From: Massalongia carnosa
Lineage: Eukaryota
DNA: 64,000 nt
Direction of reading: 5' to 3'
Assembly: GCA_965645245.1 (NCBI GenBank)
Contig: OZ287082.1
Coordinates: forward strand, 992,001-1,056,000
Part shown: positions 383 to 56,594 of the stretch, piece by piece
Layout of the letters: the number at the start of each line of letters is the position of its first letter
Position numbering within the stretch: position 1 is the first letter of the stretch
Notes under the pieces: model-generated
Told to the model about the DNA's origin: nothing
Seen by the model: the letters and a program-made list of their open reading frames with translations, nothing else
The model's database searches: none
Position numbers and translations under genes: made by a program

Positions 383-633
383 CTAGTAGAGTAGGAGATA
401 CATAAAATTGTACGCAAATTGCTAACAAAATAAAGTATCTTTTCCCCACTTTCTATCTTCCCGCTTCTTCCGCCCCCCCCCCCTCCCCCCCTGTAGCTAA
501 TCCCTGTGTCTGTCAGTTGGGCCAACTGACACGTATTAAACACTTCCCGATCGGGTTAGTCAATAAACATGTTTAATACATATCCTAGCCCTAACTAGAA
601 TAGCAATAAACACAAGGTGGCTGCGTTTCACTA
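1..633 (+). mobile_element. 3' end of a hAT-superfamily DNA transposon, abutting LINE ORF2
   Basis: Carries the transposase C-terminus, a C-tract and a palindrome TGTCAGTTGG-G-CCAACTGACA (511-531). Ends ...GGCTGCGTTTCACTA at 633, where homology to the LINE begins. The other TIR and TSD lie outside the window. Confidence 0.7.
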
Positions 634-19868: not shown

Positions 19869-21030
19869 CTATATGTTGTCTATATTGATCCACATTTGAG
19901 TAGCAATATCCTCTCGTTTGGCGTTTATGAATTTACTATCTTTCTCAAGATGATTTGAACTTTCATCTTCTTCATCTTTATCTTCGACGTCGTTTGATGC
20001 TTCTTCAGACGTTATCTCGTTGTCTATGTCATCAGATATGCCATTATTATGATGATGAATGAAGTTATTCAACGCCGTCAACGCATATATCAGTCCTACT
20101 TGTGTGCGCATAGGATGCTCCGGAGCAGTTTGCAGTATTCGAAATCTTCGTTTTATGATGCCAAACAGTCGTTCAATGACATTTCTTAGCGATGAATGAC
20201 GAAGATTAAACAGCTCTTGCTTGGTCTGTGGTTTCGATGCATGCTGTGCCTGTTCTTTGAGATGATATCTGACGCCCCGATAGGGGACCAAAGTCTTGAG
20301 AGTGTTCGAGTATCCAGCGTCGGCGAGATAGTATTTGCCTGACGGGGCGATAAATCCTTTGTTGATGGCATCATTCAAGACTCTTCCATCATGAGCAGTT
20401 CCCTCCCATCCAGCAGGTATATAAACGAAATACATATCCATATCGCACGCAGCTAATACATTTTGAGATACAAAGCCATTGCGATTCCTCCAAGCGGCCT
20501 GTTTCGATAATGGAACAAAAGCTGATTTATGAGAACCATCCAACGCCCCAATACAATCCTTGAAGAAGGGATAATATTTTGGATTTCCAGCTATATGAGA
20601 CGACAATGAAGTATTCGACCGAGGCATCTTTACAGTATGTTTATGCAGCGTGATAAGTGCATACAAGACCTCTTTAAAGACTCTACTGACGGTATCGAGA
20701 CTGTGCCCGAACCATTCAGATATCAAACGATACGAAACACCTTGACCGACGTAGACGAGAAACATAGTTAACTTTTTAGTCGCATCAATCCATCTAGTAG
20801 ATACCAAATTGGTATTTTTTAATAATCAGTCCAATAGCGCATCAAAGATCTCGAGACACATTCGTAGCATGTTAAAAATGCGACGATGATGATCAGTAAG
20901 TAAACTCGTCGTATATTCTTTGCCTCTATTCGACTCATGCTGAGTAGTCAGAATTAGATTGGGAATAATTCTCATCAAGATTAAATTGATAACCGTCGCT
21001 GTTTGCGATCGTCGCTGCAAGTAGTGTTTC
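19869..21030 (-). pseudogene. Harbinger DDE transposase (HARBI1-like), in-frame stop near 20826
   Basis: DCIGALDGSH, GWEGTAHD, YYLADAGY, FNLRHSSLRNVIERLFGIIKRRF. Start position approximate. Confidence 0.9.
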
Positions 21031-21716
21031 ATATTTAAAAGACATACAATCGTCGAATACAAGGCAAATAGAACCCTCCTTAATAAAAAAAGGACCTCGC
21101 GACCACCTTTTTTTGGCCCCCTGCAACAATCCCTGCAGACCCTTTGCAATATACCAATTATAGAACTTGCCGCGAAGGAGACTCCTTAAAAATAAGGAGA
21201 AGGCCGAACCGAACGGAAGCCTTTTTCATTATAAGGAGGTTCCATATTTTCAAGAAGGAGGCTCCTTATTGACAATAAGGAGGTTACCGAACGGGGCCTT
21301 AGGCTTGCAAATTGACACCAAATTGAAATGGGGACCGCACGTTCGCAAAACGCAAAAGAAAATGGTTAAACAATCCATGGCATTGACAAAAATCTCCACA
21401 TCGACTTGGGGTGCCACCTTCACCAAAGCAAGGCAAGTTTACAGCGCCGTACTCGGGATGACTGGGATATGCAACAAACCTAGATATGCAACAGCACTAG
21501 TAGGGGTTTACCCGAAGTTTGACCGATAATCTTCTGATTAGCATTGCCAGTCTTCCTTATCGAATTTGGCTGCAGTATCTTCAGAGCACTAATAATTGCA
21601 AGCAACGGCCGAATTAATGGTTTAAACAACTGAAGCTATAGAAAGCTTTGGTGCTTAGGCCCCGCCCGCTAGGCCGGCTCAGTGCTATATTATACATGAT
21701 GTAGTATATAAAGCAG

Positions 21717-23660
21717 TCAATCTCGCCTTCTAGGAGGTCTCACTATCCTCCCAGAGGCCGTATATACAGGCAATACCGTCACAGCGTCATGTATTCCCTC
21801 ACTTCGGGCCTTGACTGACTTCCTGCCTCTTTTACCTCTCATCCCTTTATCCCTAACATCCTGTACCTCAGTCTGTATAGCGAACTCTGGATCCTCATTC
21901 TCTAAGCAAGGCTCAGGCGGAGCAAGCGTTGAAGGGTCTAAATCGATGGAAATTGGCTGGATAGCCTGTGCCTTCTTATTTGTCTTGTTTTTCAGACTTT
22001 GAGGTTTGGGCTCTGCAATGAGACTCCACACAGATTTCCAGGCCTCCCAGAACTCCTTCTCTTGTTTATCTGCACGCTTCTTCTGCTCCTCTGTGTGCTT
22101 CTTCATCTCCCGTTCTTCGAGGACGTCATGATTCATTATACGTCCTTTACCGAGCTGTTGATTTGAACGTTTGGCCTTCTCCTTTTTACACTGTTGATTC
22201 TCCAACAATTCAGTATTTGTAGTCTCTAGTAACACCTTCTCGACGTACGTTTTTGATCCAGCCTTGCCTAGCTTCATAATCTCTTGCTGGGTACCCTTCC
22301 CATCAATAGCTTTGTGGACGATTTCATCGAATTCAGCTGCATTTCTTGGAGTCTTGATAGGAGCGGATATAGTGACGCCATCCGACGATCGGAAGAATAC
22401 TTCTGGTGGCGTATACGGCCTTAGAGTAATAGTGTTTATCACATCTTTCGGCTGTGGCAATGTCTTAAAAAGACTCTCTGGATCCAGAGGAAATAGAAGT
22501 GCTTTCTGCCAAGCACTGAGAATAGTAGTGAGTTTGGCTGTCTCACTCCGAGCTCGTTGATATAAACCAATGAAATCGACCTTATCCACGTTAGCACTGC
22601 TATCCCACTTTATCAGACGCAGTAGCTTGGTCCGATAGAGACTCCCCAGTGGCTGAAAGAAACCCACATCTAACGGCTGGAGGACGTGAGTTGTGTGAGC
22701 TGGAAGGCAAGCAAGAATAATCTTCTCATTGATACAGAATTGGATAACTTCCGACGTAATATGAGAAGCATGCCCGTCGAGGATAAGCAAGCGATATTCG
22801 CCTTGTTGTCGCTTCTTCGAATATGGATCAAATACACGTTTAAACCATTCGAAAGCGAGTGTATTATTGGTCCAGCCCTTGTCACTGATAGCGATGTTAT
22901 TACCTCGCTCCAATTCATTCATCCAGGCCTTCCGTTGAGTCTTTGCTTTAAAGATGACGAAAGCAGGAAGAAGTGCTCCATCTGCAGAGATACATTCAAG
23001 AAGAGACACCCATTCCCGGCTCCCATTCTGACACATGTATGTATTGAGGTTTGCCTTTGAAACCACTACTTTCTGCTTGCCTGCTTGGCCTATTGCAAAG
23101 CCCTTCTCGTCCATATTATATACGTCTCTTTTTTCAATGTTGTATTGCTTCATTGTGTCCGAAAAGAGCTTAAACCAATGATTGATTGTTTCGTAATTGA
23201 CTGCATTGATGCGCTCTTTATCTAACGGAGTGCAAAAGCGAGATTTTAACGAATGATGTCGATTCAAGAACTTCTCCACCCAGTGACATCCCAATGGGGT
23301 ATGATTTGCTCTTTTTTTGAGAATCTCTTCTGCTTGTAACTTGATTCGATAAATCATTGGAGGGAAGCCCCATTTGGCCAATAATTCGATCCAGTTTACT
23401 AAGCATTCCTCCTCAATGAAAGTGAGGCGTTGTTGGGCTTGATGAGCTTTGTGATGAGGTAATGTTTCTCCTTTGTATCGTCGATATAATGTTGTATGGC
23501 AAACATTGTATTTGTTGGCATATTGGCGGAATGAAGGCTTCTCTTGCTTAGGCTTTATTTCAGGCTAGAGTTCATATTCATCCCACCGCTTGATAGCTTT
23601 GGCAAAGGAGATCAGAGCAAGCTCCATGCGCTCACGCCTTGGGATGACCTCTGTATCTGA
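21717..23660 (-). pseudogene. pogo/Fot1 transposase (CENP-B HTH + DDE_1)
   Basis: YNMDEKGF, GWT, LLILDGHASH, LPAHTTHVLQPLDVGFF. The frame extends upstream of 23381 through an HTH to an in-frame TAG near 23567. Confidence 0.9.
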
Positions 23661-24513: not shown

Positions 24514-26364
24514 CATATCCCAGTCATCCCGAGTAGTGCGTCCGGTAATGACATACGGGTCAACCGTATGGCACATGCCCAAAGAAGTCAAAAAGTCAAA
24601 AACGTCAACGAGCAAGCTCTCCGTTATGCAAAACAACTGCCTTCGCACCATAGCCGGTGCCTTTAAAGCCACTCCTATTCCAGTTCTTGAAGCAGATACA
24701 TACATAGCACCCATAGATGCACACCTCGACACGCTACAGGCGCAGGCCAGACATCGACTCCGAGCCGGAGGTCAATCGAAGGTCATTTCTTCCGCATGCA
24801 GCAAAATAGTTAACAAACTTCAAGGCAAGGCAGGTCGCAAACGCCTTCAAAAACCCACTCCGGGAGAGCTGAAGCACACCTGGGCCAAAAACCTACTGAT
24901 CGACGCAAAAATCGTTCAACCACCCAAAGCACACCCACCATGGTCCGTCCACTCCCCAGCGCATCTCCGCGAAGTCTCCGTAGCAGCGTTGGCTCGTCAA
25001 AAACAAATGCAGACAATTAAAGCACGACAGCTGAAAGTCTGGAACGACTCGTGGAGCGCATATCAAAATCGCGTCACCGAACCCTCCATAGCGCAATCAG
25101 TCCCACTGAGCAAAAAACGACTGAAAATACACACGCTGCTAAAAAAGGCAGAAAGCGCCCTGACAACACAGATCCGCACCGGTAAGATCGGTCTAGCTGA
25201 CTTCCTCTACCAGCGACGGGTCCCCGCCGTCACCTCACCGGCCTGCCCATGTGGCTAACACAGACAAACTCCAGAACACGTACTTATGTTCTGTAGACTT
25301 ATTGATTGACAATAGAGAACAGATGTTTTGCGCCGCTGGCACGAATAACTATCAACAGCTGACCGAAACATCAAAACTCTAAAGATATTAACTACTTGGC
25401 TAATGAAAACAAGTCTACTGACCCAATTCTCACTGGCATCTACACTCTTATACAATTAACAGTAGTTTTACTTCTCTTTTCCTTCTTATCTCACAAGGCG
25501 TCACAGTTCTCACATGATTTTCGCTCTGCGTCTCCTGTCGGACGTTGACCCGGTGTCACATCGGACAGGTATCAAGGGATATAGTTTTTACACCTGAAAA
25601 AGGGTTTCCATGTAACATAACTTAGATAGCTTTGCCCGCATGGGCCGGCCTACGGCCGGTGACATATCGGAGTAAAAATAACCATTCGTGTTGCCATAGA
25701 AGCTATTGATGCGGATAGTTAGAAGATTGTTTGAGGGCTGTGCAGGTTTGGTTTTTAATGCCGTGGCACATCGACAAGCTCTGTTTGCGCCTATTTTGAT
25801 ATGGTAATGTCTCTTCTTTCCAGCAGTCCTATTTAGAGTGTGAGCCATTAGATGGCACGAAAGCTGAATAGAACCAGGAAACAACGTTCAAATGACTGTC
25901 CCAAAGCTGCCGATCTTGTAAGTAAATCTGGGTTGATATGTTGTGCCCCTACTTCCCACAGCTTTCTTAAGACTCCGCTTGCCAACGGGTCTCCAACTTA
26001 AACCTCAAAGCTAAACCAGCGCAGGACGGTCTGCCCGAGTCCATGACTAGTTATCTTGAAGTCAATACACAACTTTGACAAACAAACATGCAGCAAACAA
26101 TCCAAACATTTTATGTCAGACAAGCTTTGGAAAGAGACTGAGTACAAGGAGATGTTGTGAAATCCTGGACTTGAGTAGATGAGAGACATAATAATGTTTA
26201 GTTCTAAGTCTGTTGCACACGATGTGTAGGTTCTGAATGAAAGATAAGATTGTCGAATTTGTAGTAGTGTCTTAAAATAAATAAGAGTTTCTGCATTCCT
26301 TTTGCAGAATACATCGCCTAGAGCAAACTTACAGTGCTTTTGAATGGCATCAATAGAAAGTTCT

Positions 26365-26436
26365 GGCCTGCTAGGTCAGAAACCTCTACGTGGTGCAGGC
26401 TATCAACAACTCCTCGAAGGTGGCCAATATCTGATC
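26365..26436 (+). ncRNA. HDV-like ribozyme (copy 1, P4 weakened)
   Basis: Same P1/P2/P3/L3/J4-2 as 29905-29976, with two substitutions in P4 and one in J1/2. Confidence 0.72.
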
Positions 26437-26582
26437 ACCGCCAACGCGGAAGCCCACCTTGATGGCCGTTTGAATGATCAACGTCTCTACTGATCATTCA
26501 CCACTTCGAAGGCATACTAAGCCCATTCATTCGGAATGACCACACCCCTCAGGCGAAAGCCTTTCACCACATCGAAAAAGCC

Positions 26583-28505
26583 CGAGATGCTTAGGGACAG
26601 TCCCCCCTCGACCGTCCCCCCCCCCCCCCCCCCCCCTGTGTAAATCTTTACTAGTAAACAGCCATTTTACTACTCATCCAGGGTGCGTACAAGCTAGCAG
26701 TTACACTACGTATTAATAATGTTGCTGTTACTGACTAAGTGTATTTAACATCTACAAATCTACCTATTGCGATGATTTCAACTCCATAAACTCGTCAGCC
26801 AATTGCGATGATTTCAACTCCATAAACTCGTCAGCCAATTGCGATACATCATCTTTTCTAGGTTTCATGGTTTTAGCCACCTTTCTCATCGCCGTTTCCT
26901 TTCTTGCTCGAGCCCTAGCCTGTTTGACTGATTCTCAACTCTTTGCTGAGATTCCAACTCCAACTGAGCCTTTGATTTCTTCGCCACACCCCGAGACCTT
27001 CGCGTTGTTGCAGAGGAAGTAGGGAGAATTTGACTGGCGCGCACGTTTTGGCTAAGACTATAAAGAGATGGAGCCAGCGCTGCCTGAGGTAGGGCTTTTT
27101 GACTATGCTTGGCAAGCACATCGTCAATATCTTCGAGCGAATCCGACGAGGCTTCTGATGTAAGAATAACATCATTATCGTCATCCGAAGGAAGCATATG
27201 ACCCATAGAACGACCGAGAATGGGCTGAGTGCTTATATATTGCACCTCGTCATTGTCGTCGGAGACGATAGGCGCGTTTTCGATTCTCTTCATAACTAAG
27301 TTTTCTCCTAAACCTATTGTACCCAATAGAGTATTAGCCGACCCGGGCGCAATAACTTTGCAACATCGTGAGTTTTATCTTCTGTTTCACCTTCAACCTC
27401 ATCGTCGCCCCTAGCACGCAATCTATTATATCTAAGCCTCCTCCCTTGTTCAATAGAGTCCCTTCGCCTAGTACGTCGCTGTTCAGTTTCTCTAGCCTCA
27501 GCTGCCTCGCGATCAGTGTAGGCACGTCGACGACTCCCTCCTTTCTTATACATGAGGTTTTCTTTGGGCCGAATTTCGTCGAGGACTGTGATGAGGATGT
27601 GAGGTCTTATCAGCTCCTTCTTTTGCCATTTCTTATTGAACTTTTCAACGATGTGAGCATGCTCGCGAGCGTACTCCTTCCTTCGATGAGAATCTTTTAT
27701 TGATTGATGCAGGTCAATAGATTGATATGCCACAGAATGTAGCAAATCAAGGCCCCCGCGGCGAAATCTATCCTCACTCAACACGCCTTCTTCGAGCTCG
27801 ACCTCATTCTTATTCGCCTCAATCTCTCTCGTCCCTTCGACCTCATCGACGATCTTTTCGATCTCGGGCTCCGAGCCGCGAGCGAGATCGAAGGTCATTT
27901 GTCAAGAGACCGCATAAGGTGGGCCATCAAAAAACCAGCGGGGGTAGATGAGGGAAACGGGAATAGGGATCGAGTAGATGATGCATTTATACAATCAGCA
28001 TTTGCATGGGAGACCGTACCTTAAAGGCAATTCACAATCATAAACATAGCTTTTATCATCAGGGAAAATTGAAAGGATTCGTTCAGCTAATGATTTGGCG
28101 GCATCGAGTTCTCTTGAAACGAGGCCAATGGCATGATGCGTAATTTTCTCAATGAGTAGCGTAAAAGCATTTCTATCTATCAATCTAGGATTGCGTATTC
28201 GCTGTTGATTGCACAAAATCTCCTGATCTAATTGTTTTTTCCGCACCTCATCACATATTTTCTGCACCGATTGTCTTATAGGCAAGGGCAAATGGTAAGT
28301 GAGGGTGAGGGTGAGGGTGAGGGTATGCTTTATCAGACTGAGTAGGGTAATTATTAGTACGATTTAAACCGAAAAGAGTTTAATGCAGTTGCATTACTAG
28401 CTTGTACGCACCCTGGATAAGCAGTGAAATGGCTGTTTACTAGCAAAGATTTACACAGGGGGGGGGGGGGGGACGGTCGGGGGGGGACTGTCCCTAAGCA
28501 CCTCG
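26583..28505 (-). mobile_element. Internally deleted Mutator (MULE)
   Basis: ~120-bp TIRs (CGAGRTGCTTAGGGACAGTCCCC...), 9-bp TSD GAAAAAGCC (26574-26582, 28506-28514), and a frameshifted transposase C-terminus with SWIM-like CELPLRYGLPC. Confidence 0.9.
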
Positions 28506-28926
28506 GAAAAAGCCCATTCATTCGAAATGGCCACGCTTCCACACCTTCATTTATACGACATCACGATCTGCCCTCGATCACGATCAGTCTTTCCTTCATT
28601 GTGTCAAAACGATTAAAGAGAGAGAACGTTCGTCGAACGTGTGAATATACAGTCTATAGGATTCCTAGCGCTTGAAGATCTGAGTGTAAGCACCGCGTGG
28701 CAGAAGAACGATTTCGTTGCGTTCAATATGAAATAAGGGAATGATTTTACCCTGGGGCTAGGTTTCTACTTCTTGACTTGTTGTTTATGTACATAAATAG
28801 CAGTCACAGCGTCATATCCTTAGGATGCATACGCTTAATAATAAAAAATTATAAAATAAAATAAAATATTTCAAGCTAAGCTATTTGGAGGGTTTTTTTT
28901 GTCTTTCGTCGAACAGCCGGCTACTA

Positions 28927-29114
28927 TCCCTTGTGCGCCGGTAACTCATCCATACCAATCTTACCACACCGTCAACCAATCAGATTTAATGCTTCGCCCC
29001 TATTTGTAAAAATGATACACGATGAAAAGGTATATATTTTGATGTTCGTCCCTCAGCCCTACGGTAATGCATTAAACCCTTTTGGGGTGGATGAATTACC
29101 GGCGCACGAAGGGA
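28927..29114. mobile_element. MITE (Tc1/mariner-type)
   Basis: ~26-bp TIRs TCCCTT(C)GTGCGCCGGTAAYTCATCCA, TA on both sides, 188 bp, non-coding. Confidence 0.82.
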
Positions 29115-29904
29115 TATGAGCCCCCAATCGCGTTCCCCGAACCGGTGTGCCGCAAACGTCGTATAGCCGTACATGGTCGTCTCTTCCTTGCTAGCGTTCC
29201 CGTAGCACCGAGTGGTCCTAGTTTCTAGCGCTTCATATTCTTGATTCTTGCGTGGCTCCCTCCAGGCGTTGATCGCAGGAGGTTCTCTGACATCTCTGGG
29301 AGATCGTCGGCAACTTTATTTTTTGACATTAACTTTGCAAGTTTAGCAGTATATGCGCTTTTCGGCTCCTTGAGAGATCCTTGAGATTCTCGGAATACTC
29401 GAGGCGCTACATTGTCACGCAGCTCCTTCTGCGTAGCCTTTGACAGGCTTGCCCGTTCTATGATAGATCTCGAGTGGGAGGTTCATGGTAACATGAACCT
29501 ATGACTAGGCCCTTAAGTGTTCCTGTAGGGGCCGATTTAGTCGATTCAATGGATCTGGCATTCATTGAACAATCAAGGCTGGACCGTGTCATTGTCACGA
29601 GGCTGGTACTCTACCAACAAGGCTGGACCTTGTTGTTATGATACTGATATTCTATCAACAAGACTAGATCTTGTCGTCGCGAGGCTAATCCTGATTGCAC
29701 GATACTGGTATCGTGACGCAGACATGGTAGGAAAGAAGACTGATTGGATAGACGAGGCATAAGAAAAATTTCTGAACGGATTGATTTCTTGAGCATTGAT
29801 TGCTTCAGAAGCCGCATCAGAAAATCTGTAGGAGTTTTCATCATGACATCAACAAACACCCTTAGGCATTTTGTTATCAGATCCGCGGAGGAATGAAATC
29901 GGAG

Positions 29905-29976
29905 GGCCTGCTGGGTCAGAAACCTCTACGTGGTGCAGGCTATCAACACCTCCTCGGAGGTGGCCAATATCTGATC
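29905..29976 (+). ncRNA. HDV-like self-cleaving ribozyme
   Basis: P1 GGCCTGC/GCAGGCT (G1.U wobble), P2 GGTCAGA/TCTGATC, P3 ACC/GGT, L3 TCTACGT, P4 CACCTC-CTCG-GAGGTG, J4/2 GCCAA with C29964 at the catalytic C75 position. Confidence 0.85.
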
Positions 29977-30061
29977 ATCGCCAGTGCGGAAGTCCACCTC
30001 GGTGGCCATTTGAACGATCAACGTCTCTACTGATCATTCGTCACCTCGAAGGCACACATAC

Positions 30062-30325
30062 AAAGCCCATTCATTCGGAATGACCACACCCCTCAGGCGG
30101 AAGCCTTTCACCTCATCGAAAAAGCCCATTCATTCGGAATGGCCACACCCCTCAGGCGGAAGCCTTTCACCTCATCGAAAAAGCCCATTCATTCGGAATG
30201 GCCACACCCCTCAGGCGGAAGCCTTTCACCTCATCGAAAAAGCCCATTCATTCGGAATGGCCACACCCCTCAGGCGGAAGCCTTTCACCACATCGAAAAA
30301 GCCCATTCATTTAGAATGGCCACAC
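30062..30325 (+). repeat. 59-bp tandem repeat, about 4.5 copies, inside the retroposon
   Basis: Units start at 30062, 30121, 30180, 30239 and 30298. Confidence 0.95.
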
Positions 30326-31829
30326 TTACACACCTTCATTTATACGACACCACGATCTGCCCTCGATCACGGCCAGTCTTTCCTCCATTGAATCAAAACG
30401 TTTAAAGAGAGAGAACGTTCGTCGAACGTGTGGAAATACACTGTCTAGTTCATCGAGTCTATAGGATTCCTAGCGCTTGAAGATCTGGGTGTATGCACCG
30501 CGTGGTAGAAGGACGGTCTCGTTGCGTTCAACATGGAACAAGGGAGTGGTTTTACCCTGGGGGCCAGGTTTCCACTTCCTGACTGTTGTTTATGTACATA
30601 AATAGCAGTCACAGCGTCATATCCTTAGGATGCATACGCTTAATGAATTAATAATAATAATAATAATGAAATCGGAGACTTCTGGTTTTGATCCTTTGGC
30701 CGCGATGGTGTTGAGCCAAGACCGAAAAGATCGGGACGCCTTTCTTTGTGATCTTGACTCAAGCGTCGCTGGGGGGTGGGCAGAACGGAGACGGAAGAAA
30801 AGGAGGGATCCGAGATGTTGATGGGCCACAGGAATTGAGGACTAGATTGTACACATGAGACGTAGAGCTACTTCTTTAATGTACGAAGTACAGAATAGTA
30901 TGATCTCAGCATGTATTGGCTTCGAGTCATTTTATCTATACAGCATAGTCTCACCCGTGTCAATGATATTCATCCATTTATAAAATATCGTAATCATAAG
31001 ATCTCATCCTCAACATCACACATCGACTGTGTTGCAATTCTCTTCTTTCCAACATTCCCGAACGAAGCAAGCAGTATGTTAACAAGCACGTCGCGATCGA
31101 GCCTTACCAACCAACTTGAGCCCCACCCGACCTTTCCCACATCATAACAACAATTATCCCCGCAACGCTCGTCATTCGGTCATCGCAACGTGCAATGGGA
31201 CGGTGCGGTAGGGAATAGGCGGGGAGGTGCTTGATGGATTGATTGATGACAGTGCTGGTGAGAATACGGAATACGTGTTAGTGAGACGGGGTTGAGGGAG
31301 AACGCTTTGGTAGAGGTGCGTGATGATGATGAAGCTGATATTTTGTGTGATAATGCCTGGTGATGGAGGAAATGTTGGCATGGAGATGAGATGTTTATTA
31401 TCTGTTTTGTGGCATTTGAATCGTCTTGATCGTTGAAGTGTTTAAAGCGAAAACGATTACGTTGTTGATAATCATCATACATGATTACAGTACTCCGTAC
31501 TCTGTATAGAGTAAATAAAACTCGTATTATATATAGAATACTCGAGCGTAGCACTTCGTACTCCGTACAGTAGATAGATGAGTCGTATTTTGCAAGTCGT
31601 TTTGTCGTAATAAATGTTAGCGTACTGCAGATGGCGATAAATACGTGTAATCTCGGGACATGGGAACCTCGAGACGATTTGTATTCGTACAATCATGCAC
31701 TCCGTGTGCTATGGAGATGATGCTGCTTCTAAGTCCAAAGTATACGATTTAAGCCTCATCTGTGACCGGTTACCTGTCCGTCGCTTAATCTCGAATCAGT
31801 TAACTTAATGCTACGATTGACTACAAGGA

Positions 31830-40720: not shown

Positions 40721-42472
40721 CTATAATCTTATCGGCTCCAGCCTGACACCTCCAAAAGAAAACCCCCCAAACCAGCTTCTTTGAAACTTCATGCTGATTA
40801 TCATTGCCAAATGCCCATCGAGCTCGACATCGACCAGATCGTTTCCAATCTCGCACCATCCGGTATCCTTGAGGGTGTTCCATAGACCGGAGTCTACCAT
40901 TTGCTGTTTGTATCCGTCCCTTAGCAATACCGGCACGCTATCGGGAAATGTGTTCACATCAATGCTTTTGTGCATGAACTTCATGGGTTCTTTTGCTCTA
41001 CCAACGGAATAGAGGACGTTGAAAGGCGGGAAATGGCCTGGTTCTACAACCGATGCATCCTGTCCGGGAATAATGGAGGGAAATTTGCGCTGCGTGACCG
41101 AGTTCTCCTCTATAGTGGGTGCTTGCCCGCGGAAATACCATACCACCCATTTGATTCGATATCTCCCATGAGGGATATCAAAGGCCTGACCTCGAATAAG
41201 AAGGTTTACAAACCTTCGGCTCGAAAGAATGGTAGAGCCCACAGGTCTCACGGTCTTGCAACGAAATTGCGGATCGACTCTTACGTTTGACGGATATCCT
41301 GATGTATGATCCACTTCCTCACGATACCAGAGTGCCATTGATGGATAGTCTGAGTCGCGGTCATCTTCGTGAACGACGGTGAATTGACCGGCAGATAGCT
41401 CATATGGCATCGCTTTGTTCGTAAGTTCTCTGATGCGTTTCACACAGGCCAGCTGACTGCGATATGTCTGGGCATTATTCAAATACGCCTGTGTAAACCC
41501 CGCAAGCTGATTCATCTTTTCCCATTCTTGTAAGCCAATTGTTTCGAGTCCTTGGTCGACGTTAAACCGATAATACTCGGTCTTGCATCTGTAAGAATGG
41601 AATCTTCTGTCAAGCGCGTTATCAACTCCAGAAGCTGATGTCGCGAGATCTTTAAGGGCCTTGAGCAATTCTATTTGTCCTCGAAGCCCAACGTTCCACC
41701 AGCTTGGCTGCTGCTTCTCGAGAGAAGATGGAGGCTCTTTGCCGGTCCCCAGGGAAACAAACACGCCAATCTCCCGTCCTGGCCACAGTCGATCTACTTC
41801 ATCACATGCCACTTTCCCAGGGTTATTGAAGCCCAAACCAGCATCTATGTATCGGACTCCAGGAGTACCAATGATCATCTCCTCGAAGAATGTGAAAGCG
41901 GCGCTAGTCGCTCGAGCCGCTTCCCATATGGTGGTTTCGTCGTTTCGCTCGTAAGTAGTGAAGCTATGCGGATCAGGGTTGTTAACCTTATCCGCGATGA
42001 CCGCAAGGACAAAGGCATGACATGCCCTCTGTTGCTCCGAGGGCTCCTCATACATGCTTGCTTCGGAATCGCCAGAATACTTCTTTACAACCTCTTTGAT
42101 GGCATCCTTTAGCTTCTGTGCGCTGAACCTGGCCTCACCCTTCTTGCTTACCCTAAGGACGGTTCCTAACACGCTGTGTCCTTTCTCTTCCTCGAATATT
42201 CGTTTCGAAAGCCTTAGATATTCGTCAATCGCTTGTTTGGTAGTAAGCCTCAATCTTCCTAGCAAAATTGCGATCAGCCCTCCGGTGCTTGTCCCACATA
42301 TTATGTCAAAGTAGTCGCACGGTCTAAGCGTTCCTATCGCAGCCTTTTCTTGATCGCCCAGATGATTCATAAGAGTCTGGAGAATCATGAGTGCGGAGAG
42401 TCCGCGGACACCGCCCCCATCCAGAGAGAGTACTCGCGCTGGCTCGAGGGAATTTGACTCTAAATGAGGCAT
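40721..42472 (-). CDS. Patatin-like phospholipase with an extra C-terminal domain (PP2/Nictaba-like)
   Basis: LSLDGGGVRG, GTSTGG, ARATSAA, DAG motifs. Intronless 583-aa ORF. Confidence 0.9.
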   Translation of the reverse strand: MPHLESNSLEPARVLSLDGGGVRGLSALMILQTLMNHLGDQEKAAIGTLRPCDYFDIICGTSTGGLIAILLGRLRLTTKQAIDEYLRLSKRIFEEEKGHSVLGTVLRVSKKGEARFSAQKLKDAIKEVVKKYSGDSEASMYEEPSEQQRACHAFVLAVIADKVNNPDPHSFTTYERNDETTIWEAARATSAAFTFFEEMIIGTPGVRYIDAGLGFNNPGKVACDEVDRLWPGREIGVFVSLGTGKEPPSSLEKQQPSWWNVGLRGQIELLKALKDLATSASGVDNALDRRFHSYRCKTEYYRFNVDQGLETIGLQEWEKMNQLAGFTQAYLNNAQTYRSQLACVKRIRELTNKAMPYELSAGQFTVVHEDDRDSDYPSMALWYREEVDHTSGYPSNVRVDPQFRCKTVRPVGSTILSSRRFVNLLIRGQAFDIPHGRYRIKWVVWYFRGQAPTIEENSVTQRKFPSIIPGQDASVVEPGHFPPFNVLYSVGRAKEPMKFMHKSIDVNTFPDSVPVLLRDGYKQQMVDSGLWNTLKDTGWCEIGNDLVDVELDGHLAMIISMKFQRSWFGGFSFGGVRLEPIRL

Positions 42473-45330: not shown

Positions 45331-46464
45331 TCATTTTCCTCGCAACGTTTCCTTCTTCATCCTGCTCACAAACTCCCCCGCAAGCTTTACCACCTTTTCC
45401 GTCTCAGCTTCAAACCCAGTCAAATTGCCCGCATAGAGGATATCGTGGCTCGTAAACGGCTCGACGTAGACCTCGATCCTATTTCCTTTCCGATCCATAG
45501 CATCGGCAAACGCCATGCCTTCGTCGTAAAGGATCTCGAGGCCGCCAAGCTGGATCCAGAGGGGCGTTTCGGTCCGAAACGGATGGTGGAGGGGCGAGAT
45601 ATACGGATCGTCTGCTTCCATCGCCTTTGGGATGTACGCACGAGCTCCCCAGGAAGTGAAGTTGCTGGGCAGATAGTCGGTCTTGTAATGTCGATTGCCG
45701 TTGATATATGCCTCGTCGCGGGCGGACGCAAGATCCAACCAGGGGCTGAAGAGCAATGCGGCCAATGGGTCGGGGAGGAGACCGTTGCTGCGGGCAATGT
45801 GGCGTAGCAGTGCGATGGCGAGATTCGCGCCGGCGGAGTCGCCGGAGATGACGATCCGGCGAGCGGAAACCCCTTGATCGAGGAGATACTGGTAGGCGGT
45901 AACGGCGTCCTGCAGTGCGGCGGGGAAATGACAGTGTGGATTGCTGGCAAGCCTGTATGATAGAAACAGGGCCTTTGCGTTGAGGTGTTCGGTCAGCTGC
46001 TTGGCCCCAAAGTCAACGTCGCCTGATCGGCCCTCTATCACCACATAGGCACCTCCGTGAAAATGAAGAACGACGGTCTGCTCGTCATCGATCTGGTTCT
46101 CGTTGGCTTGGAAGAGACTTGGGTACCAAGTCCCTCCTGTGAGCGTCGGCTGGACGTCTGCATCATCCAAAAGCCCACGATAGATGAGATCATCCGATGA
46201 CGGGCTGATCGTGACGAACCGGTCCTTCTCGGTGAGCTGGAGAGGCGTGTGCATTTCCACGGCGCTGATGTTGTACAGGATTGCCCTGACAACCTTGCTC
46301 ATGATTGCCTGGCGATAGGTCCATTGTGGATGCTGACGGAATCGTCTGGGGATGAAACAGATGAGCCAGAACGGCAACCGGGCCAAAGTGAAAACAACCA
46401 CGGCGACAGTCCAGATGGCTTTTCCCGGCTGTTGAGTGACGAACTTCTGTCGTGATTCGGTCAT
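45331..46464 (-). CDS. Alpha/beta-hydrolase fold-3 (HSL-like) esterase/lipase
   Basis: HFHGGAY, YRLA, FPAALQD, GDSAG, SPW, ISP and HD motifs. Confidence 0.92.
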   Translation of the reverse strand: MTESRQKFVTQQPGKAIWTVAVVVFTLARLPFWLICFIPRRFRQHPQWTYRQAIMSKVVRAILYNISAVEMHTPLQLTEKDRFVTISPSSDDLIYRGLLDDADVQPTLTGGTWYPSLFQANENQIDDEQTVVLHFHGGAYVVIEGRSGDVDFGAKQLTEHLNAKALFLSYRLASNPHCHFPAALQDAVTAYQYLLDQGVSARRIVISGDSAGANLAIALLRHIARSNGLLPDPLAALLFSPWLDLASARDEAYINGNRHYKTDYLPSNFTSWGARAYIPKAMEADDPYISPLHHPFRTETPLWIQLGGLEILYDEGMAFADAMDRKGNRIEVYVEPFTSHDILYAGNLTGFEAETEKVVKLAGEFVSRMKKETLRGK

Positions 46465-52368: not shown

Positions 52369-55300
52369 CGACGCCAGGATGCCCTACAGCTAGCTAATCA
52401 TGAATCTGACGGATTACCTCCAGTTTCAATTCATCCTGTGCGGGCACCCATAGCTTATTCCGCTTGTATAGCAAGCCGTCCTTGACCTGACAGTCTTTTA
52501 ACGCCGGCGAGTATTCCGAGTCTGAATCAATTCCAGTGCTTGCAGCACTCAATGTCTGACGCATATTATTGCAATCCTCATCTGTGACATTGCCCTGCCT
52601 TACCTTTTCTTCCAAGGTCTGAACAGCCTCTTCCGTTTCTGTCTCGATGGGCGCCAGTTCGATGCGATTGCGGGGCAACAGAGTCTGTAGCTGATGCTGT
52701 TGGCGATCGTCCTTCTCATCCTTGGGCTTATCATTGGGTCTCCGGGTTAGAGCATCAGCCTTTTCATTATTTTTACCCGTTTGATAAACGATGACGAAGT
52801 TGAACTCAGATAGGAATTCCGCCCATCTAGCCTGTCGACGGGTCAACTTTTTGGCAGTCATGAAAAATTCCAAACTCTTGTGATCGGTGAAGACCTTTAT
52901 AGGTATTTCTGTGCCTTCCAATTCTGGTCTCCATTTTTCAAAGCATCGAATGATAGCTATAAGTTCTTTATCGTAGATCTCGTAATTGCACTCGGCCGGG
53001 CTCATGTTCTTGGAGAAGAAGGCTACCGGATGCAATTCGTCATCCTCACCCATTTGGGACAGAATACCCCCACTGACATAATCCGAAGAGTCTGTTTCTA
53101 ACCAACACTGTAGTTTTGGATCGAAATGAGCAAGAACAGGTGCTTCCACCACTCGATCCTTCAGGTCCTGGAACCCCTGAGCGCAAGCTTCGGTCCATTC
53201 GAAGATTCTATCCTTCTTGGCCAGTGCGTTTAATGGTCCAGCTAGTTTGGAAAAGCCTCGAATGAATCGCCGATAGAAGTTGCAAAAGCCTATAAATGAT
53301 CGCACCTCGCGAAGACAGGTAGGAACGCTCCATTCCATGATAGCCTTGATCTTTTCCGGGTCCATCTTGATACCATCCGTGCTGATGATCAGGCCAAATA
53401 CTTCGTTTCAGTGACGTGGAATTCACACTTATCCACATCGGCTTGAATGCCTGCCTCTCTTAACTTGATGAGCACTCCCCTTACATGCTGACGGTGTTGT
53501 TTCAGATTTCTGCTATAAATCAGAATGTCATCCAGATAGGCCGTACAAAATTTGTCTAAGTATTCAAAGAGGACATCATTAATGAAGTGCTGCCACGAAG
53601 CCGGTCCTCCAGTCAATCCAAATGGTGACACCTTGTATTTATAGGCCCCAAACCGTGAGTTGAAGGTGGTGAGGTCCTCCGACGCAGCCTTCATCCGAAG
53701 TTTATGAAAGGCCTAACGAATATCTATTTTAGAGAATATTTTAGCCTCTTTCAACTAAGCCAACGTTTCCTCGATAAAAGTTATTGGATAACGATCATTT
53801 TTAGTGACCTGATTTAGCCTTCGGTAATCTACGCAGAACCGTAATCCACCACTAGGCTTTTTAGCTAACAGAATGGGCGATGAGCATGCCGCATGGCTTG
53901 CTTCGATGAAGCCTTTTCTGAGATTGTCTTCTAGATATTTCCTGACAAACTCCAGTTCTTTCTGGGACATGCTCCGAAGAGGACTATATCCATGATCTTT
54001 ACCCCCTTCGAGCAGTATCTTGTGATCATGCAATCTATGAGGTGACAACGTATCAGAATCTATCTTCGAAAACACGTCCAAAAACTCGTGATACTCCGGC
54101 GGCACTACCAACTTTGGATCAGTAGGAGGCCTCGACTCCTTATTCAACTGATCGTCTATGTCCTTCATCGAGATCGCATAGACTTTTACCGCCTTACAGT
54201 GAGTAAGATATCGGTAGGATTCTGCACCAATGATGGCTACATCAACCGGTTTAGATGGTTTCGGATCGATCCTCGGAACTTCCTTTGGGATTGGAGTAGC
54301 CTCCGGTTTATCTTCCATGATAGATCGACGCAATATCTTTTGGGGTGAGATCACTGTAGTCAACTCCTCATCCATCGATTTTTTATTGATCGTTTCCAGT
54401 TTCCTAGGAAGTTCTATCAACTTAGGAGCACCCGGGTGGGTGCAGTGTCCAGGCCAGAACATGATTTTATCGCAACTCATGTCCAGAATGACTCCATGCT
54501 TTCGCATCCATGGTTTTCCTAGTATCATTTTATGCTGCCCTAGCTGTGTAATCAACAGAGGCGAGATTGTTTCCCTATGATTCTGCACGGTGAGGGTAGG
54601 ATAGATGGCGTGGGTGATAGGCTTACCCAAGCGGCCATCGAAACCTCTCACCGGCTTCGGTTTCGTCAATCGCTGCGGTGATAGTTGCAGTCGTTCACAA
54701 ATCGTGCGCACCATCTTTTCATCAATAAAAGCATGTCCTGTAGCACCAGTTTCTAACAGAGTAACAAGCTCTATTTCTTCCTGATTGCCTAGTTTACATG
54801 AAGTAACAAGAGGTTCATCGGTAAAAAAATCACCAGGCAAACAAGATGATGAGATCAAAGAGGTTTATCATCGTCATCTTTACTCGCGTCTTCGAGGGAG
54901 ATCAGTCTTTTTTTGACTTCGGCTCAACATCTAACTCGTTAATGATGGCTGTCATCTTTGATTTCTTTTTAGGACAGTCCCTTGAGGGATGTCCGACCTC
55001 CTTGCAATTGAAGCTCTTCCCTTCCCTGCTCAACCGCTCCCGTTCCGGCTCCGATAGATAGGATCCTACGGTCCAGGACGACAAGGTCGATGACGATGAA
55101 GGGGCACGAGACTCGGTGCGAGCATTTGGTGCCCCATAGGTTTTGCTTTCGGTGGTAGTGGTAGGGGTGTTCGCCGGGACCACTACACTGGTTGGTTTTT
55201 TTCCTTCGGCAAAGCGTTCCATCCTAGCTTTGCTACGATCCACATCCTTCAGAGCCTGATACATGCGCTGGCAACGCTGAGCGAACGCATATAGGTCGGT

Positions 55301-56594
55301 TGGTTCGCGATCGCCGGCGGCTAGCCGACGGCGCATATCTAGGTTGAGCTTGTGTTTCAACTCACCGATTAGGGTAGCCTCATTGTGATCCAACTCGGCG
55401 GCCAAACACTGAAACTCCGCCCAAAAGGTATTGAAGTCCTTTTGACCCTGTCGCAGAGAACGGAATAGGTTCATGGCAGTCTGTTTGCGGTTCGGATCTC
55501 CATAAATTCGTTCCAAATGATCAAACATTTCCTCTGCAGTAAGAAAAGGGTTGATAGCATTTTTTCGGAGACGAGGTTCCAAATGGCCCATGGCCTCTCC
55601 GCCGACTCGGTTTTCCACATAGGCTTTTTAAATAGCTCGGTAGGCATATGGTCTTCATAAGCAGCTAATTTGCTGCGCATTTTAGTCAACCAATGATCGA
55701 TACTCGGTTCTTTTCCATCGATAAAAACCGGTGGGTCGGGAAGTTTCATCGACTTCCATAAAGATCCTTCGCTCTGATTGGATCGTGCAGGGAGCCCTGC
55801 AGGTCATGTGGAGGTGGATATGATGGTGGTGCATTACTCCCTGCAGGTGCAGTAGCTGCTGCGGCCATCCGCCGAGCCTCTTCAAGTTCTTCCTTCTGGT
55901 ATTCAATCATACCTGCTTGGTATTATGTTCCACCATGACCTCATCATAGTCTGACTTCATGTCTCGTATTATAGCCAAGACTGTTTCGGCATCCTCCTGC
56001 ACCCAGTGCCGAAGACGTTGTACTGTTTCTATCCTCCATGGTGAGTCAGCCTCGGGGCCTTCTTCACCGATTTCTATGGGCGGGATGAGAGACTCCCGTT
56101 GATAGTAGGTGGGTGTTTCGTTCGCGGATCTAGCCATTTCTATCGTTCTTCCTTACTCAGCTCTGTTGAGTATAGTCCGGTTTCGTTCGTGTTCGGATTG
56201 GTATCGGATCTACTCTGAGGATAGTCCTAGGATTTCGGATCTGGTTCGTGTTTCGGGTGCTGACTGACTAACAGTTGGGTGGATTGTTTTATATCCTCCA
56301 CAAGGGATAGCAAGATTTAGAGTGATCTTACTAGTTGTGTAGCACGTCGACCTAGATAGAAATCTAATAGGGACTATGTACGAAAATTACCTTAAGGGCG
56401 GTTGGGGGTATTCGGACATGGTCTTGAGATGGTCTCAAGATATTATCCACTAGAACGTTCTTGTCTTAGTCTATCTACATAGTGATTACGTCAGTCAAGA
56501 AAGCAAATAGTGTTCAGATATTTTGTTTTCAAGACAATCTCGTGACTTCGTTATATGTAAGATATCTTATGACGTGGAATGCATGTTTCTAACA
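52367..56594 (-). mobile_element. Ty3/gypsy LTR retrotransposon, degenerate and 3'-truncated
   Basis: gag (degenerate knuckle SFNCKEVGHPSRDC), protease (LLETGAT), RT ([20 protein letters not shown]), RNase H (ETDSS, NYEIYDKEL, TDHKSL) and integrase start HD*LAVGHPG. Multiple stops and frameshifts. Confidence 0.93.
56285..56594 (-). repeat. Probable 5' LTR of the gypsy element
   Basis: TG..CA-bounded ~310-bp segment just upstream of gag. No second LTR available to confirm the ends. Confidence 0.55.

What the first reader, a model, noticed from the sequence alone, without database searches (positions are those of the whole stretch)
29905..30664. SINE-like retroposon whose 5' end is an HDV-like self-cleaving ribozyme
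Seen: a 760-bp non-coding element with a 13-bp TSD and (TAA)n tail. Its first 72 nt fold as a nested double pseudoknot: P1 GGCCTGC/GCAGGCT, P2 GGTCAGA/TCTGATC, P3 ACC/GGT, L3 TCTACGT, a one-pair P1.1 (T-A), P4 CACCTC/GAGGTG and J4/2 GCCAA. The predicted cleavage site (5' of G29905) coincides exactly with the TSD boundary. Known: HDV-like ribozymes cleave 5' of a G.U-paired G1 and process the 5' ends of several non-LTR retrotransposons such as R2. Inference: this is a non-tRNA, non-5S 'ribozyme-headed SINE' that cuts itself out of read-through transcripts and borrows a LINE RT through its 3' hairpin and tail.
Basis: partly seen in the sequence, partly recalled or inferred. Interest (0 to 1): 0.92.

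Follow-up and report, generated by a model that had tools for sequence, protein, structure and literature searches.

The report
Ribozyme-headed SINE-like retroposon in a fungus
A short, very abundant, non-coding jumping element of a lichen-type fungus starts exactly at the predicted cut site of an HDV-like self-cleaving RNA; this design is known from insects and trypanosomes but has apparently not been described in fungi.

Summary
Window 29905-30664 (+) is a 760-bp non-coding retroposon with a 13-bp target-site duplication (TSD), a (TAA)6 tail and a 59-bp x4.5 internal tandem array.

Its first 72 nt give full-length but sub-threshold matches to two Rfam HDV ribozyme models. An older second copy at 26365 gives the same match, and these are the only HDV hits in the 64 kb. 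Two descriptors I wrote after seeing the sequence hit only these sites and no shuffled window.

Assembled contigs from four sequencing runs show many copies whose sequence breaks away from the window exactly at G29905, into unlike upstream flanks. There is no tRNA, 5S or 7SL head.

The 3' end folds into three stable hairpins and resembles the (TAA)n-tailed 3' ends of Tad1-like LINEs.

Best reading: a non-autonomous non-LTR retroposon whose 5' end is made by ribozyme self-cleavage and which is copied by a Tad1-clade LINE. Cleavage, transcription mode and the partner LINE are inferred, not shown.

The architecture is already known (R2 SIDEs, NARTc/L1Tc), so this is a new member of a known kind, apparently the first in fungi.

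By eye only, the published consensus of the powdery-mildew retroposon Eg-R1 folds in the same register, with compensatory changes in P1 and P2.

The parts
29892..29904 (.). Left copy of the 13-bp target-site duplication, AATGAAATCGGAG
   Evidence: identical to 30666-30678
29905..29976 (+). Predicted HDV-like self-cleaving ribozyme, with cleavage 5' of G29905. P1 29905-29911/29935-29941; P2 29914-29920/29970-29976; P3 29922-29924/29932-29934; L3 29925-29931; J1/4 29942-29946; P4 29947-29952/29957-29962; J4/2 29963-29969 with candidate catalytic C29964
   Evidence: RF02682 26 bits and RF00094 23.1 bits, both full length, both below gathering score
29977..30061 (+). Unique 5' body after the ribozyme
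   Evidence: 70 of 81 aligned bases identical to copy 2
30062..30325 (+). Tandem array, 59-bp unit x4.5. The number of units varies between copies
   Evidence: copies skipping 177 bp (3 units) in runs X6 and X7; about 1.5 units in copy 2
30326..30540 (+). 3' body
30541..30640 (+). Three 3' hairpins (30541-30580, 30581-30610, 30613-30640); likely the site recognised by the reverse transcriptase
   Evidence: -43.6 kcal/mol, z = -5.24, 0 of 200 shuffles as stable. 30586-30644 (about 59 bases, ending just before the tail) is identical in copy 2. Similar to the LINE 3' end in L017
30649..30666 (+). (TAA)6 tail; its last base overlaps the first base of the TSD
30666..30678 (.). Right copy of the 13-bp TSD
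26365..26583 (+). Older second copy, 5' part. It starts at the same G; ribozyme 26365-26436
   Evidence: (RF02682 26.9 bits)
28506..28854 (+). Older second copy, 3' part with a degenerate A/T-rich tail; no TSD recognised
26584..28505 (.). About 1.9-kb DNA transposon with terminal inverted repeats, nested in copy 2. Not part of the retroposon, but it dates copy 2 as old
   Evidence: inverted terminal repeats of about 110 bp with poly-C/G runs; flanking repeat GAAAAAGCCC at 26574-26583 and 28506-28515

Best explanation
A SINE-like, non-autonomous non-LTR retroposon of an ascomycete. Runs labelled lichen metagenome hold it.

Proposed cycle:
1. The element is transcribed as part of a longer RNA or from an unknown promoter (inferred).
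2. Its first 72 nt fold into an HDV-like double pseudoknot that cuts the RNA just 5' of G29905, so the RNA begins at the element's first base (inferred from fold and position).
3. The three 3' hairpins plus the (UAA)n tail are bound by the reverse transcriptase of a (TAA)n-tailed Tad1-clade LINE (inferred from likeness).
4. That LINE copies the RNA into a nicked target by target-primed reverse transcription. This gives the 13-bp TSD and full-length copies that all start at G1 (TSD and uniform 5' ends are shown).

Its origin is either an internal deletion of a ribozyme-headed LINE or the joining of a ribozyme module to a LINE 3' end. This is open.
For: (1) Covariance models. Full-length matches to RF02682 and RF00094 at 29905/6-29976/8. 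In the RF00094 alignment P1 starts at G29905, and GGCCAA aligns to the models' GGCUAA, which holds the catalytic C. The same hit occurs at copy 2. No other HDV hit is in the 64 kb. There are 0 HDV hits among 4 matches in 60 kb of nine LINE loci used as a control.

(2) Descriptors. The strict one hit only 29905, with 0 hits in 60 shuffles. The P4-free one hit only 29905 and 26365, with 0 hits in 30 shuffles.

(3) Precise 5' ends in contigs of four runs (16 loose-end rows shown, 127 not shown). Contigs break away just before 29905 in 18 (X1), 6 (X5), 1 (X6) and 1 (X7) records. The upstream consensus agrees only 0.39-0.5 in X1 and X5, which indicates many different insertion sites. A few break at 29904 (3+3), 29908 (3) or 29917 (2). 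1976 records were laid in X1.

(4) Conservation. Copy 1 versus copy 2: ribozyme 69/72, next segment 70/81, 3' body 184/203, last about 105 nt 97/103. The three ribozyme differences lie in J1/2 and P4, not in P1, P2, P3, L3 or J4/2. None of the 40 variant rows shown lies in 29905-29983, while 29 lie in 29984-30532 (20 rows not shown).

(5) No pol III head: no tRNA, and no 5S, 7SL or tRNA match at E<=10.

(6) 3' end. Three hairpins, z = -5.24. Element bases 705-760 match the 3' end of a Tad1-like LINE in L017 (78% over 58 nt, E 5.6e-4, partly tail). The LINE in L005 has a 19-bp TSD and a (TAA)6 tail.

(7) By eye only, from the Eg-R1 consensus printed in supplement 1 of PMC6022598. It has the same register: P1 1-7/31-37 GGGGGAC/GTCCCCT with G1.U37, P3 ACC/GGT, a 7-nt L3 and GCCAA in J4/2. 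4 of 7 P1 pairs and 6 of 7 P2 pairs are changed on both sides yet still pair; P2 needs one bulge. An example 5'-RACE clone there starts at that G1.
Against: - Both Rfam scores are well below gathering (26 vs 44; 23.1 vs 50), and the gathering scan is empty.
- The nested fold is not unusually stable (z = -1.59).
- P1.1 is reduced to one U-A pair (U29927-A29942). The aligned position that is G in the F. prausnitzii and HDV models is U29943 here. From memory, weakening P1.1 slows HDV-type ribozymes.
- Within the family I have only two full sequences and no compensatory change. Copy 2's two P4 changes break pairs.
- A uniform 5' end could equally come from a fixed transcription start.
- The partner LINE was not found. 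There were 0 hits for the 23-mer in metagenome contigs. No ribozyme was seen in 79 Tad1-like LINE loci: one search gave one AT-rich hit (L011), one search gave one hit 3' of the RT (L053), and the best non-window score was 14.9 bits. One search found nothing at the TSD-defined 5' end of the L005 LINE.
- The descriptors were made post hoc.
- The Eg-R1 fold was not run through any tool.
Confidence: 0.75

Rival explanations
1. The element is a real SINE-like retroposon, but the HDV-like fold is inactive or coincidental. On this view the uniform 5' end comes from a fixed RNA polymerase II start with an internal promoter, as in many I/Tad1-type LINEs.
For: - Rfam scores are below gathering.
- P1.1 has one pair.
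- Fold energy is unremarkable.
- There is no covariation within the family.
- Uniform 5' ends do not separate a transcription start from a cleavage site.
- In L1Tc the same 77 nt are both promoter and ribozyme (PMC3383444, abstract as listed).
Against: - The full-length double-pseudoknot match sits exactly on base 1 in both copies and nowhere else in 64 kb.
- There were 0 descriptor hits in 60 and 30 shuffles.
- The core is the best-kept segment.
- By eye, Eg-R1 keeps the same helices with different letters.
Confidence: 0.15
2. It is a short internally deleted LINE (a SIDE-type element). Head and tail would both come from one ribozyme-headed autonomous LINE still present in the genome, rather than from an independently built SINE.
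For: - Precedent: R2 SIDEs (PMC3414825, abstract).
- Many length variants keep about 150 nt of the 5' end and about 300 nt of the 3' end while swapping the middle (joints 30058/30111/30119 to 30346 and others).
- In run X5, 4 contigs run on unlike the window right behind 29976, the last base of the ribozyme. This suggests another family carrying the same head.
Against: - No LINE with this head or this 3' end was found.
- The in-window Tad1-like LINE (591 to about 5056, minus strand) shares nothing with the element and has no HDV hit.
- This is a sub-case of the best explanation, not a contradiction of it.
Confidence: 0.35
3. It is a 5'-truncated LINE 3' UTR or another fragment, not a discrete element.
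For: Both the (TAA)n tail and the TSD would also fit a truncated LINE copy.
Against: - In the rows shown, 26 contig ends in four runs lie at the same base, 29905.
- Two window copies start at the same G.
- There is no RT-like sequence, and the longest stop-free frame is 125 codons.
Confidence: 0.02

Closest known systems
R2 SIDEs and R2/R1 hybrid SIDEs of Drosophila (PMC3414825; abstract read)
   Same: An HDV-like ribozyme at the 5' end is joined to a LINE 3' end. They are non-coding and copied by a LINE's target-primed reverse transcription. The R2/R1 hybrids have 14-bp TSDs.
   Different: SIDEs insert in rDNA, are rare and are clear deletion derivatives of known R2/R1 elements. The window element is dispersed, very abundant (1976 contig pieces in one run), fungal, (TAA)n-tailed, carries a 59-bp tandem array, and has no identified parent.
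NARTc / L1Tc Pr77-L1TcRz of Trypanosoma cruzi (PMC3383444 and PMC3185411; abstracts as listed)
   Same: A non-autonomous partner shares with its LINE a roughly 77-nt 5' head that is an HDV-like ribozyme.
   Different: It is a trypanosomatid element of the ingi clade with an A-rich tail. Its head is also a proven promoter, and cleavage has been shown in vitro. None of this has been tested here.
Eg-R1 (EGRT1) SINE-like retroposon of barley powdery mildew (PMC6022598; passages and supplement 1)
   Same: It is a roughly 670-bp fungal non-coding retroposon without A/B boxes, with TSDs and more than 3000 copies. Its 5' 88 nt are shared with another non-LTR family. By eye its first 86 nt fold in the same HDV-like register, and a 5'-RACE clone starts at G1.
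   Different: It has a poly(A) tail and signal instead of (TAA)n, no sequence likeness outside P3 and J4/2, a longer P4 and a two-pair P1.1. No ribozyme is mentioned in that paper ('ribozyme' occurs 0 times in the preprint text). My fold of it was not tool-tested.
Rfam RF02682 (HDV-F-prausnitzii) and RF00094 (HDV ribozyme)
   Same: Full-length alignment, an identical 13-nt P3/L3 block ACCUCUACGUGGU, the CAAC of J1/4-P4, and GGC-AA in J4/2.
   Different: Scores are 26 and 23.1 bits against cut-offs of 44 and 50. J1/4 is one base shorter and lacks the G that makes the second P1.1 pair.
Classical tRNA-, 5S- or 7SL-headed SINEs
   Same: Short, non-coding, LINE-dependent, with a TSD and a LINE-type tail.
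   Different: There is no pol III head. A ribozyme occupies the position of the head.

Membership tests
HDV-like self-cleaving ribozymes | Nested double pseudoknot with P1, P2, P3 and P4 in the canonical order | tested here: met
   P1 7 bp, P2 7 bp, P3 3 bp, P4 6 bp. P1 and P4 also appear in the unconstrained MFE fold.
HDV-like self-cleaving ribozymes | Cleavage-site G1 closing P1 as a G.U wobble | tested here: met
   G29905.U29941. The RF00094 alignment starts P1 at 29905.
HDV-like self-cleaving ribozymes | Catalytic cytosine in J4/2 (C75 equivalent) | tested here: met
   C29964 in GGCCAA aligns to GGCUAA in both models. It is identical in copy 2.
HDV-like self-cleaving ribozymes | P1.1 mini-helix, two pairs between L3 and J1/4 | tested here: inconclusive
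   Only U29927-A29942 can pair. C29926 faces U29943, where the models have G.
HDV-like self-cleaving ribozymes | Score at or above the Rfam gathering cut-off | tested here: not met
   26 vs 44 (RF02682) and 23.1 vs 50 (RF00094). The Rfam seeds are viral or bacterial.
HDV-like self-cleaving ribozymes | Mg2+-dependent self-scission leaving a 5'-OH at G1 | not testable with these tools
   No RNA run was listed. This needs a bench assay.
SINE in the strict sense (pol III head) | A 5' head derived from tRNA, 5S, 7SL or snRNA, with an internal pol III promoter | tested here: not met
   ARAGORN found 0 genes in 26000-31000. No such Rfam match at E<=10.
Non-autonomous non-LTR retroposon (LINE-dependent) | TSD, a 3' tail of LINE type and no coding capacity | tested here: met
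   13-bp TSD and (TAA)6. Longest stop-free frame 125 codons. Tad1-like LINEs with (TAA)n tails and a 19-bp TSD.
SIDE / NARTc type (ribozyme head plus LINE 3' end) | The 3' end is shared with an identified autonomous partner | tested here: inconclusive
   Only a weak likeness to the 3' ends of distant Tad1-like LINEs (78% over 58 nt including the tail). No partner in the window. No genome is held.
SIDE / NARTc type (ribozyme head plus LINE 3' end) | The same ribozyme head is present on the autonomous LINE | tested here: inconclusive
   Not found in 79 distant LINE loci. There is a hint of another family with the same head in run X5.

The most novel reading that the evidence does not exclude
HDV-like ribozyme heads may define a whole, unrecognised class of pol III-independent SINE-like retroposons, and perhaps their LINE partners, across filamentous ascomycetes. 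The range would run from lichen fungi to cereal powdery mildews. It would include Eg-R1 and the BG_Non-LTR families, whose conserved 5' 88-100 nt would then be the ribozyme. The 72-88-nt head would be a portable module swapped between families.
Probability: 0.45. Interest if true: 0.7.

Novelty: new member of a known kind. Interest (0 to 1): 0.55.

Why it matters
It would extend ribozyme-processed retrotransposition from animals and trypanosomatids to fungi.

It would also show how a very abundant fungal repeat can spread without a pol III promoter: any read-through transcript becomes a correct template once the head cuts itself free.

If the by-eye reading of Eg-R1 holds, it gives a testable answer to a question open since 1996, namely what kind of element Eg-R1 is. 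Eg-R1 is described as sharing some SINE features while being distinct from classical SINEs. With Egh24 it is said to cover about 10% of the barley powdery mildew genome (bioRxiv 10.1101/242271, the preprint of PMC6022598; passages).

It also adds eukaryotic sequences to HDV-like models, which currently score such heads below threshold.

Tried and rejected
- Whole-genome search: no genome is held for this window.
- Earlier notes of this scan: nothing by place, sequence or words.
- RNA evidence: no RNA holder was listed, so nothing can be said on expression.
- Exact 23-mer of the ribozyme core in metagenome contigs: 0 hits.
- Degenerate core pattern and the LINE protein in viral contigs: 0 hits, and 0 confirmed relatives.
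- Ribozyme in Tad1-like LINEs. 79 metagenome loci (455 kb, RT 25-52% identical to the window LINE) gave no credible ribozyme.
  - The strict descriptor gave one AT-rich hit in L011.
  - The P4-free descriptor gave one hit in L053, 3' of the RT.
  - Model R1 gave its best non-window score at 14.9 bits.
  - Rfam on nine loci gave no HDV match.
  - Rfam on the TSD-defined 5' end of the L005 LINE gave 0 matches.
  - These loci are distant and many are cut at the 5' end, so this is a weak negative.
- A loose, structure-only descriptor was rejected as unspecific, with about 20 sites in the window.
- Fetching a powdery-mildew copy through a published 18-nt primer: 0 hits in viral contigs. There were 5 hits in bacterial genomes, which I take to be chance matches; none shows the P1 partner upstream.
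- Folding or model-scoring Eg-R1 with tools was left out, because that sequence is neither the window's nor a stored locus.
- TSD of copy 2: none recognised.
- Literature. No paper in the held library joins HDV-like ribozymes with Tad1 (0 papers). For fungal non-LTR elements the searches returned 6 and 2 papers. I judged the 6 by title and abstract start only. One of the 2 (PMC6765202) I read in passages and found no fungal non-LTR ribozyme case; the other (PMC3185411) I judged by title and abstract. The search joining ribozymes with Blumeria retrotransposons gave 3 papers, unrelated by title. Subscription-only papers are not covered.
Full report
**What is there.** Window 29905-30664 (+) is a 760-bp element bounded by a perfect 13-bp direct repeat. 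The repeat is AATGAAATCGGAG, at 29892-29904 and 30666-30678. The element ends in (TAA)6. The 5' boundary is unambiguous, because the base that follows the downstream repeat is A while the element begins with G. Inside lies a 59-bp unit repeated 4.5 times (30062-30325, 98% matches). No stop-free frame exceeds 125 codons, ARAGORN finds no tRNA in 26000-31000, and no tRNA, 5S or 7SL model matches at E<=10.

**The head.**
- P1, 7 bp, with G29905.U29941.
- P2, 7 bp.
- P3, ACC/GGT.
- L3, 7 nt.
- P4, 6 bp.
- J4/2, GCCAA, with C29964.

Infernal aligns the whole of two Rfam HDV models to it. RF02682 gives 26 bits (E 0.016) and RF00094 gives 23.1 bits (E 0.72) for the 951 bases searched against 4227 families. 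In the RF00094 alignment P1 starts at G29905, which places the predicted cut between 29904 and 29905.

Both scores are below the curated cut-offs (44 and 50), and the gathering scan is empty. In the E-value scan of the whole window only three matches reach E<=10. Two of them are RF02682 at 29906-29976 and 26365-26436.

I wrote two descriptors.
- The strict one requires perfect P1-P4. It hits only 29905 on either strand, and nothing in 60 dinucleotide shuffles of the window.
- The second ignores P4 but requires GCNAA before P2. It hits only 29905 and 26365, and nothing in 30 shuffles.

Both were designed after seeing the sequence. A loose structure-only version is unspecific, with about 20 sites. 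The nested fold energy is unremarkable (z = -1.59). The weakest feature is P1.1. Only U29927-A29942 can pair, and the position that is G in both models is U29943.

**A second copy.** BLAST within the window finds an older copy. Its bases 1-223 lie at 26365-26583 (90.6% identical) and its bases 391-756 at 28506-28854 (86.4%). The two parts are split by a 1.9-kb element with inverted terminal repeats, flanked by the repeat GAAAAAGCCC. This copy starts at the same G.

Identity between the two copies, by segment:

| Segment | Identical / aligned |
|---|---|
| Ribozyme | 69/72 |
| Following unique segment | 70/81 |
| 3' body | 184/203 |
| Last ~105 nt | 97/103 |

About 59 bases ending just before the tail (30586-30644) are identical in both. 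The three changes in the ribozyme lie in J1/2 and P4, and the two in P4 break pairs. So there is conservation of the core but no covariation within the family.

**Many copies, one 5' end.** No genome is held. Public runs that hold the stretch include ones labelled lichen metagenome and several coded organisms. I laid Logan contigs of four runs on 29600-30950 at 80% likeness.
- 1976 records fell on the element in X1, 118 in X5, 2 in X6 and 1 in X7.
- Summed word depth inside the element is hundreds of times that of the flanks. The tool warns this is not a copy number.
- Among the 16 loose-end rows shown (127 not shown), contigs break away just before 29905 in 18 (X1), 6 (X5), 1 (X6) and 1 (X7) records.
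- The upstream consensus agrees only 0.39-0.5 in X1 and X5, meaning different insertion sites.
- A few break at 29904, 29908 or 29917.
- None of the 40 variant rows shown falls in 29905-29983, against 29 in 29984-30532 (20 rows not shown).
- X6 and X7 each hold a near-identical copy lacking three 59-bp units.
- In X5, four contigs run on unlike the window right behind 29976, the last base of the ribozyme. This hints at another family with the same head.

This rules out randomly truncated LINE tails. It does not separate ribozyme cleavage from a fixed transcription start.

**The tail and the likely helper.** The last 125 nt fold into three hairpins (-43.6 kcal/mol, z = -5.24, 0 of 200 shuffles as stable).

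The window is TE-rich fungal DNA. It holds a Tad1-like LINE (endonuclease plus RT, 591-2912 minus strand, with a zinc-knuckle ORF1 upstream), pogo-like and Harbinger-like transposases, and an LTR-element RNase H. The LINE's named relatives are from Macrophomina and Bipolaris, at 42% identity. That LINE shares nothing with the element and has no HDV hit. Its ORF2 stops after 773 of about 1120 residues, so its own 3' end is not visible.

From 79 metagenome loci encoding relatives of it, at least four carry (TAA)4-6 where the 3' end of the LINE is expected: L005, L011, L017 and L075. In L005 the LINE is bounded by a 19-bp TSD and ends in (TAA)6. Element bases 705-760 match the 3' end of the L017 LINE (78% over 58 nt, E 5.6e-4, partly due to the tail), and a similarly placed hairpin precedes the tail. 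So a (TAA)n-tailed Tad1-clade LINE is the likely helper. This is an inference.

None of the 79 loci shows a credible HDV-like head. This is a weak negative, because the loci are distant (RT 25-52% identical) and often cut.

**Comparison with what is known.**
- Ribozyme heads on non-LTR elements are established for R2, L1Tc, RTE and baggins. [quoted passage not shown]
- The nearest architectures are the R2 and R2/R1 SIDEs (PMC3414825, abstract) and NARTc (PMC3383444, abstract as listed).
- Searches joining HDV-like ribozymes with Tad1, with fungal non-LTR elements, or ribozymes with Blumeria retrotransposons returned no paper on the point. Most were judged by title and abstract start only, and only within the held library.

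The element is therefore a new member of a known kind, apparently the first fungal one.

**An unexpected relative, by eye only.** Eg-R1 of barley powdery mildew is described as SINE-like but without A/B boxes, probably polymerase II-transcribed, with more than 3000 insertions. Its 5' region is conserved among eight BG_Non-LTR families, with 88 nt shared with NonLTR-5_BG (PMC6022598, passages and supplement; bioRxiv 10.1101/242271, its preprint, passages).

The 670-bp consensus printed in its supplement folds, by my reading, in exactly the window's register:
- P1 1-7/31-37, GGGGGAC/GTCCCCT, with G1.U37.
- P3 18-20/28-30, ACC/GGT.
- L3, 7 nt.
- A two-pair P1.1.
- A long, bulged P4.
- GCCAA at 72-76.
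- P2 10-16 with 79-86, with one bulge.

Against the window, 4 of 7 P1 pairs and 6 of 7 P2 pairs differ on both sides yet still pair. An example 5'-RACE clone in the same supplement starts at that G1. I did not run this sequence through any tool, so it is a lead and not a test.

**Verdict.** Self-cleavage, the mode of transcription and the partner LINE remain to be shown.

Noticed in passing
window 26584-28505: A DNA transposon of about 1.9 kb nested in the older retroposon copy. It has inverted terminal repeats of about 110 bp with long poly-C/G runs and a flanking 10-bp repeat GAAAAAGCCC, which looks Mutator-like. It holds a 194-aa ORF (27314-27898, minus strand) with no Pfam match.
   Followed up: partly
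window 591-5056 (-): A Tad1-like LINE. ORF2 has endonuclease and RT domains but stops after 773 of about 1120 residues. ORF1 has a zinc knuckle and is interrupted by an insert flanked by direct repeats of about 125 bp (about 3725-3845 and 4480-4600). A poly-G-rich stretch follows the ORF2 stop.
   Followed up: partly
window 19869-23381, 52394-55618: Further mobile elements: a Harbinger-type DDE_Tnp_4 transposase (19869-20807, minus strand), a pogo-type DDE_1 transposase (21717-23381, minus strand) and an LTR-retrotransposon RNase H (52394-53365, minus strand). Host-like genes: patatin (40721-42472, minus strand) and an Abhydrolase_3 (45331-46464, minus strand).
   Followed up: no
window 29905-30664 versus runs X6 and X7: Runs labelled as two other organisms each hold a copy that differs from the window copy by only 6-7 letters over about 558 nt and lacks three 59-bp units, in a different flank. 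This fits recent activity or very close relatedness of the fungi. It was not resolved.
   Followed up: no
window 29976/29977, run X5: Four contigs match the ribozyme and then run on unlike the window, starting right behind its last base. This may be a second family, perhaps the LINE, carrying the same head.
   Followed up: no
copy 2 versus copy 1 (26365-28854 versus 29905-30664): 27 of 47 substitutions are G>A or C>T in the direction of copy 2. That is a RIP-like or deamination-like bias in the older copy.
   Followed up: no
L005 3063-8023: A metagenomic Tad1-like LINE with a 19-bp TSD (TCGTCCCAGGAAAATCGTC), a (TAA)6 tail and a 1050-aa ORF2. There is no ORF1 of 120 aa or more, and no Rfam match at its 5' end.
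   Followed up: yes
window 30636-30672; L005 7975-8004: Both the retroposon and the L005 LINE have ATGAAT(T/G)AA just before the (TAA)n tail, and the window TSD begins AATGAA. This may be microhomology between the RNA 3' end and the target.
   Followed up: no
Eg-R1 consensus in supplement 1 of PMC6022598: By eye, the first 86 nt of this powdery-mildew retroposon form an HDV-like fold in the same register as the window's head. A 5'-RACE clone starts at its G1. This was not tool-tested.
   Followed up: partly
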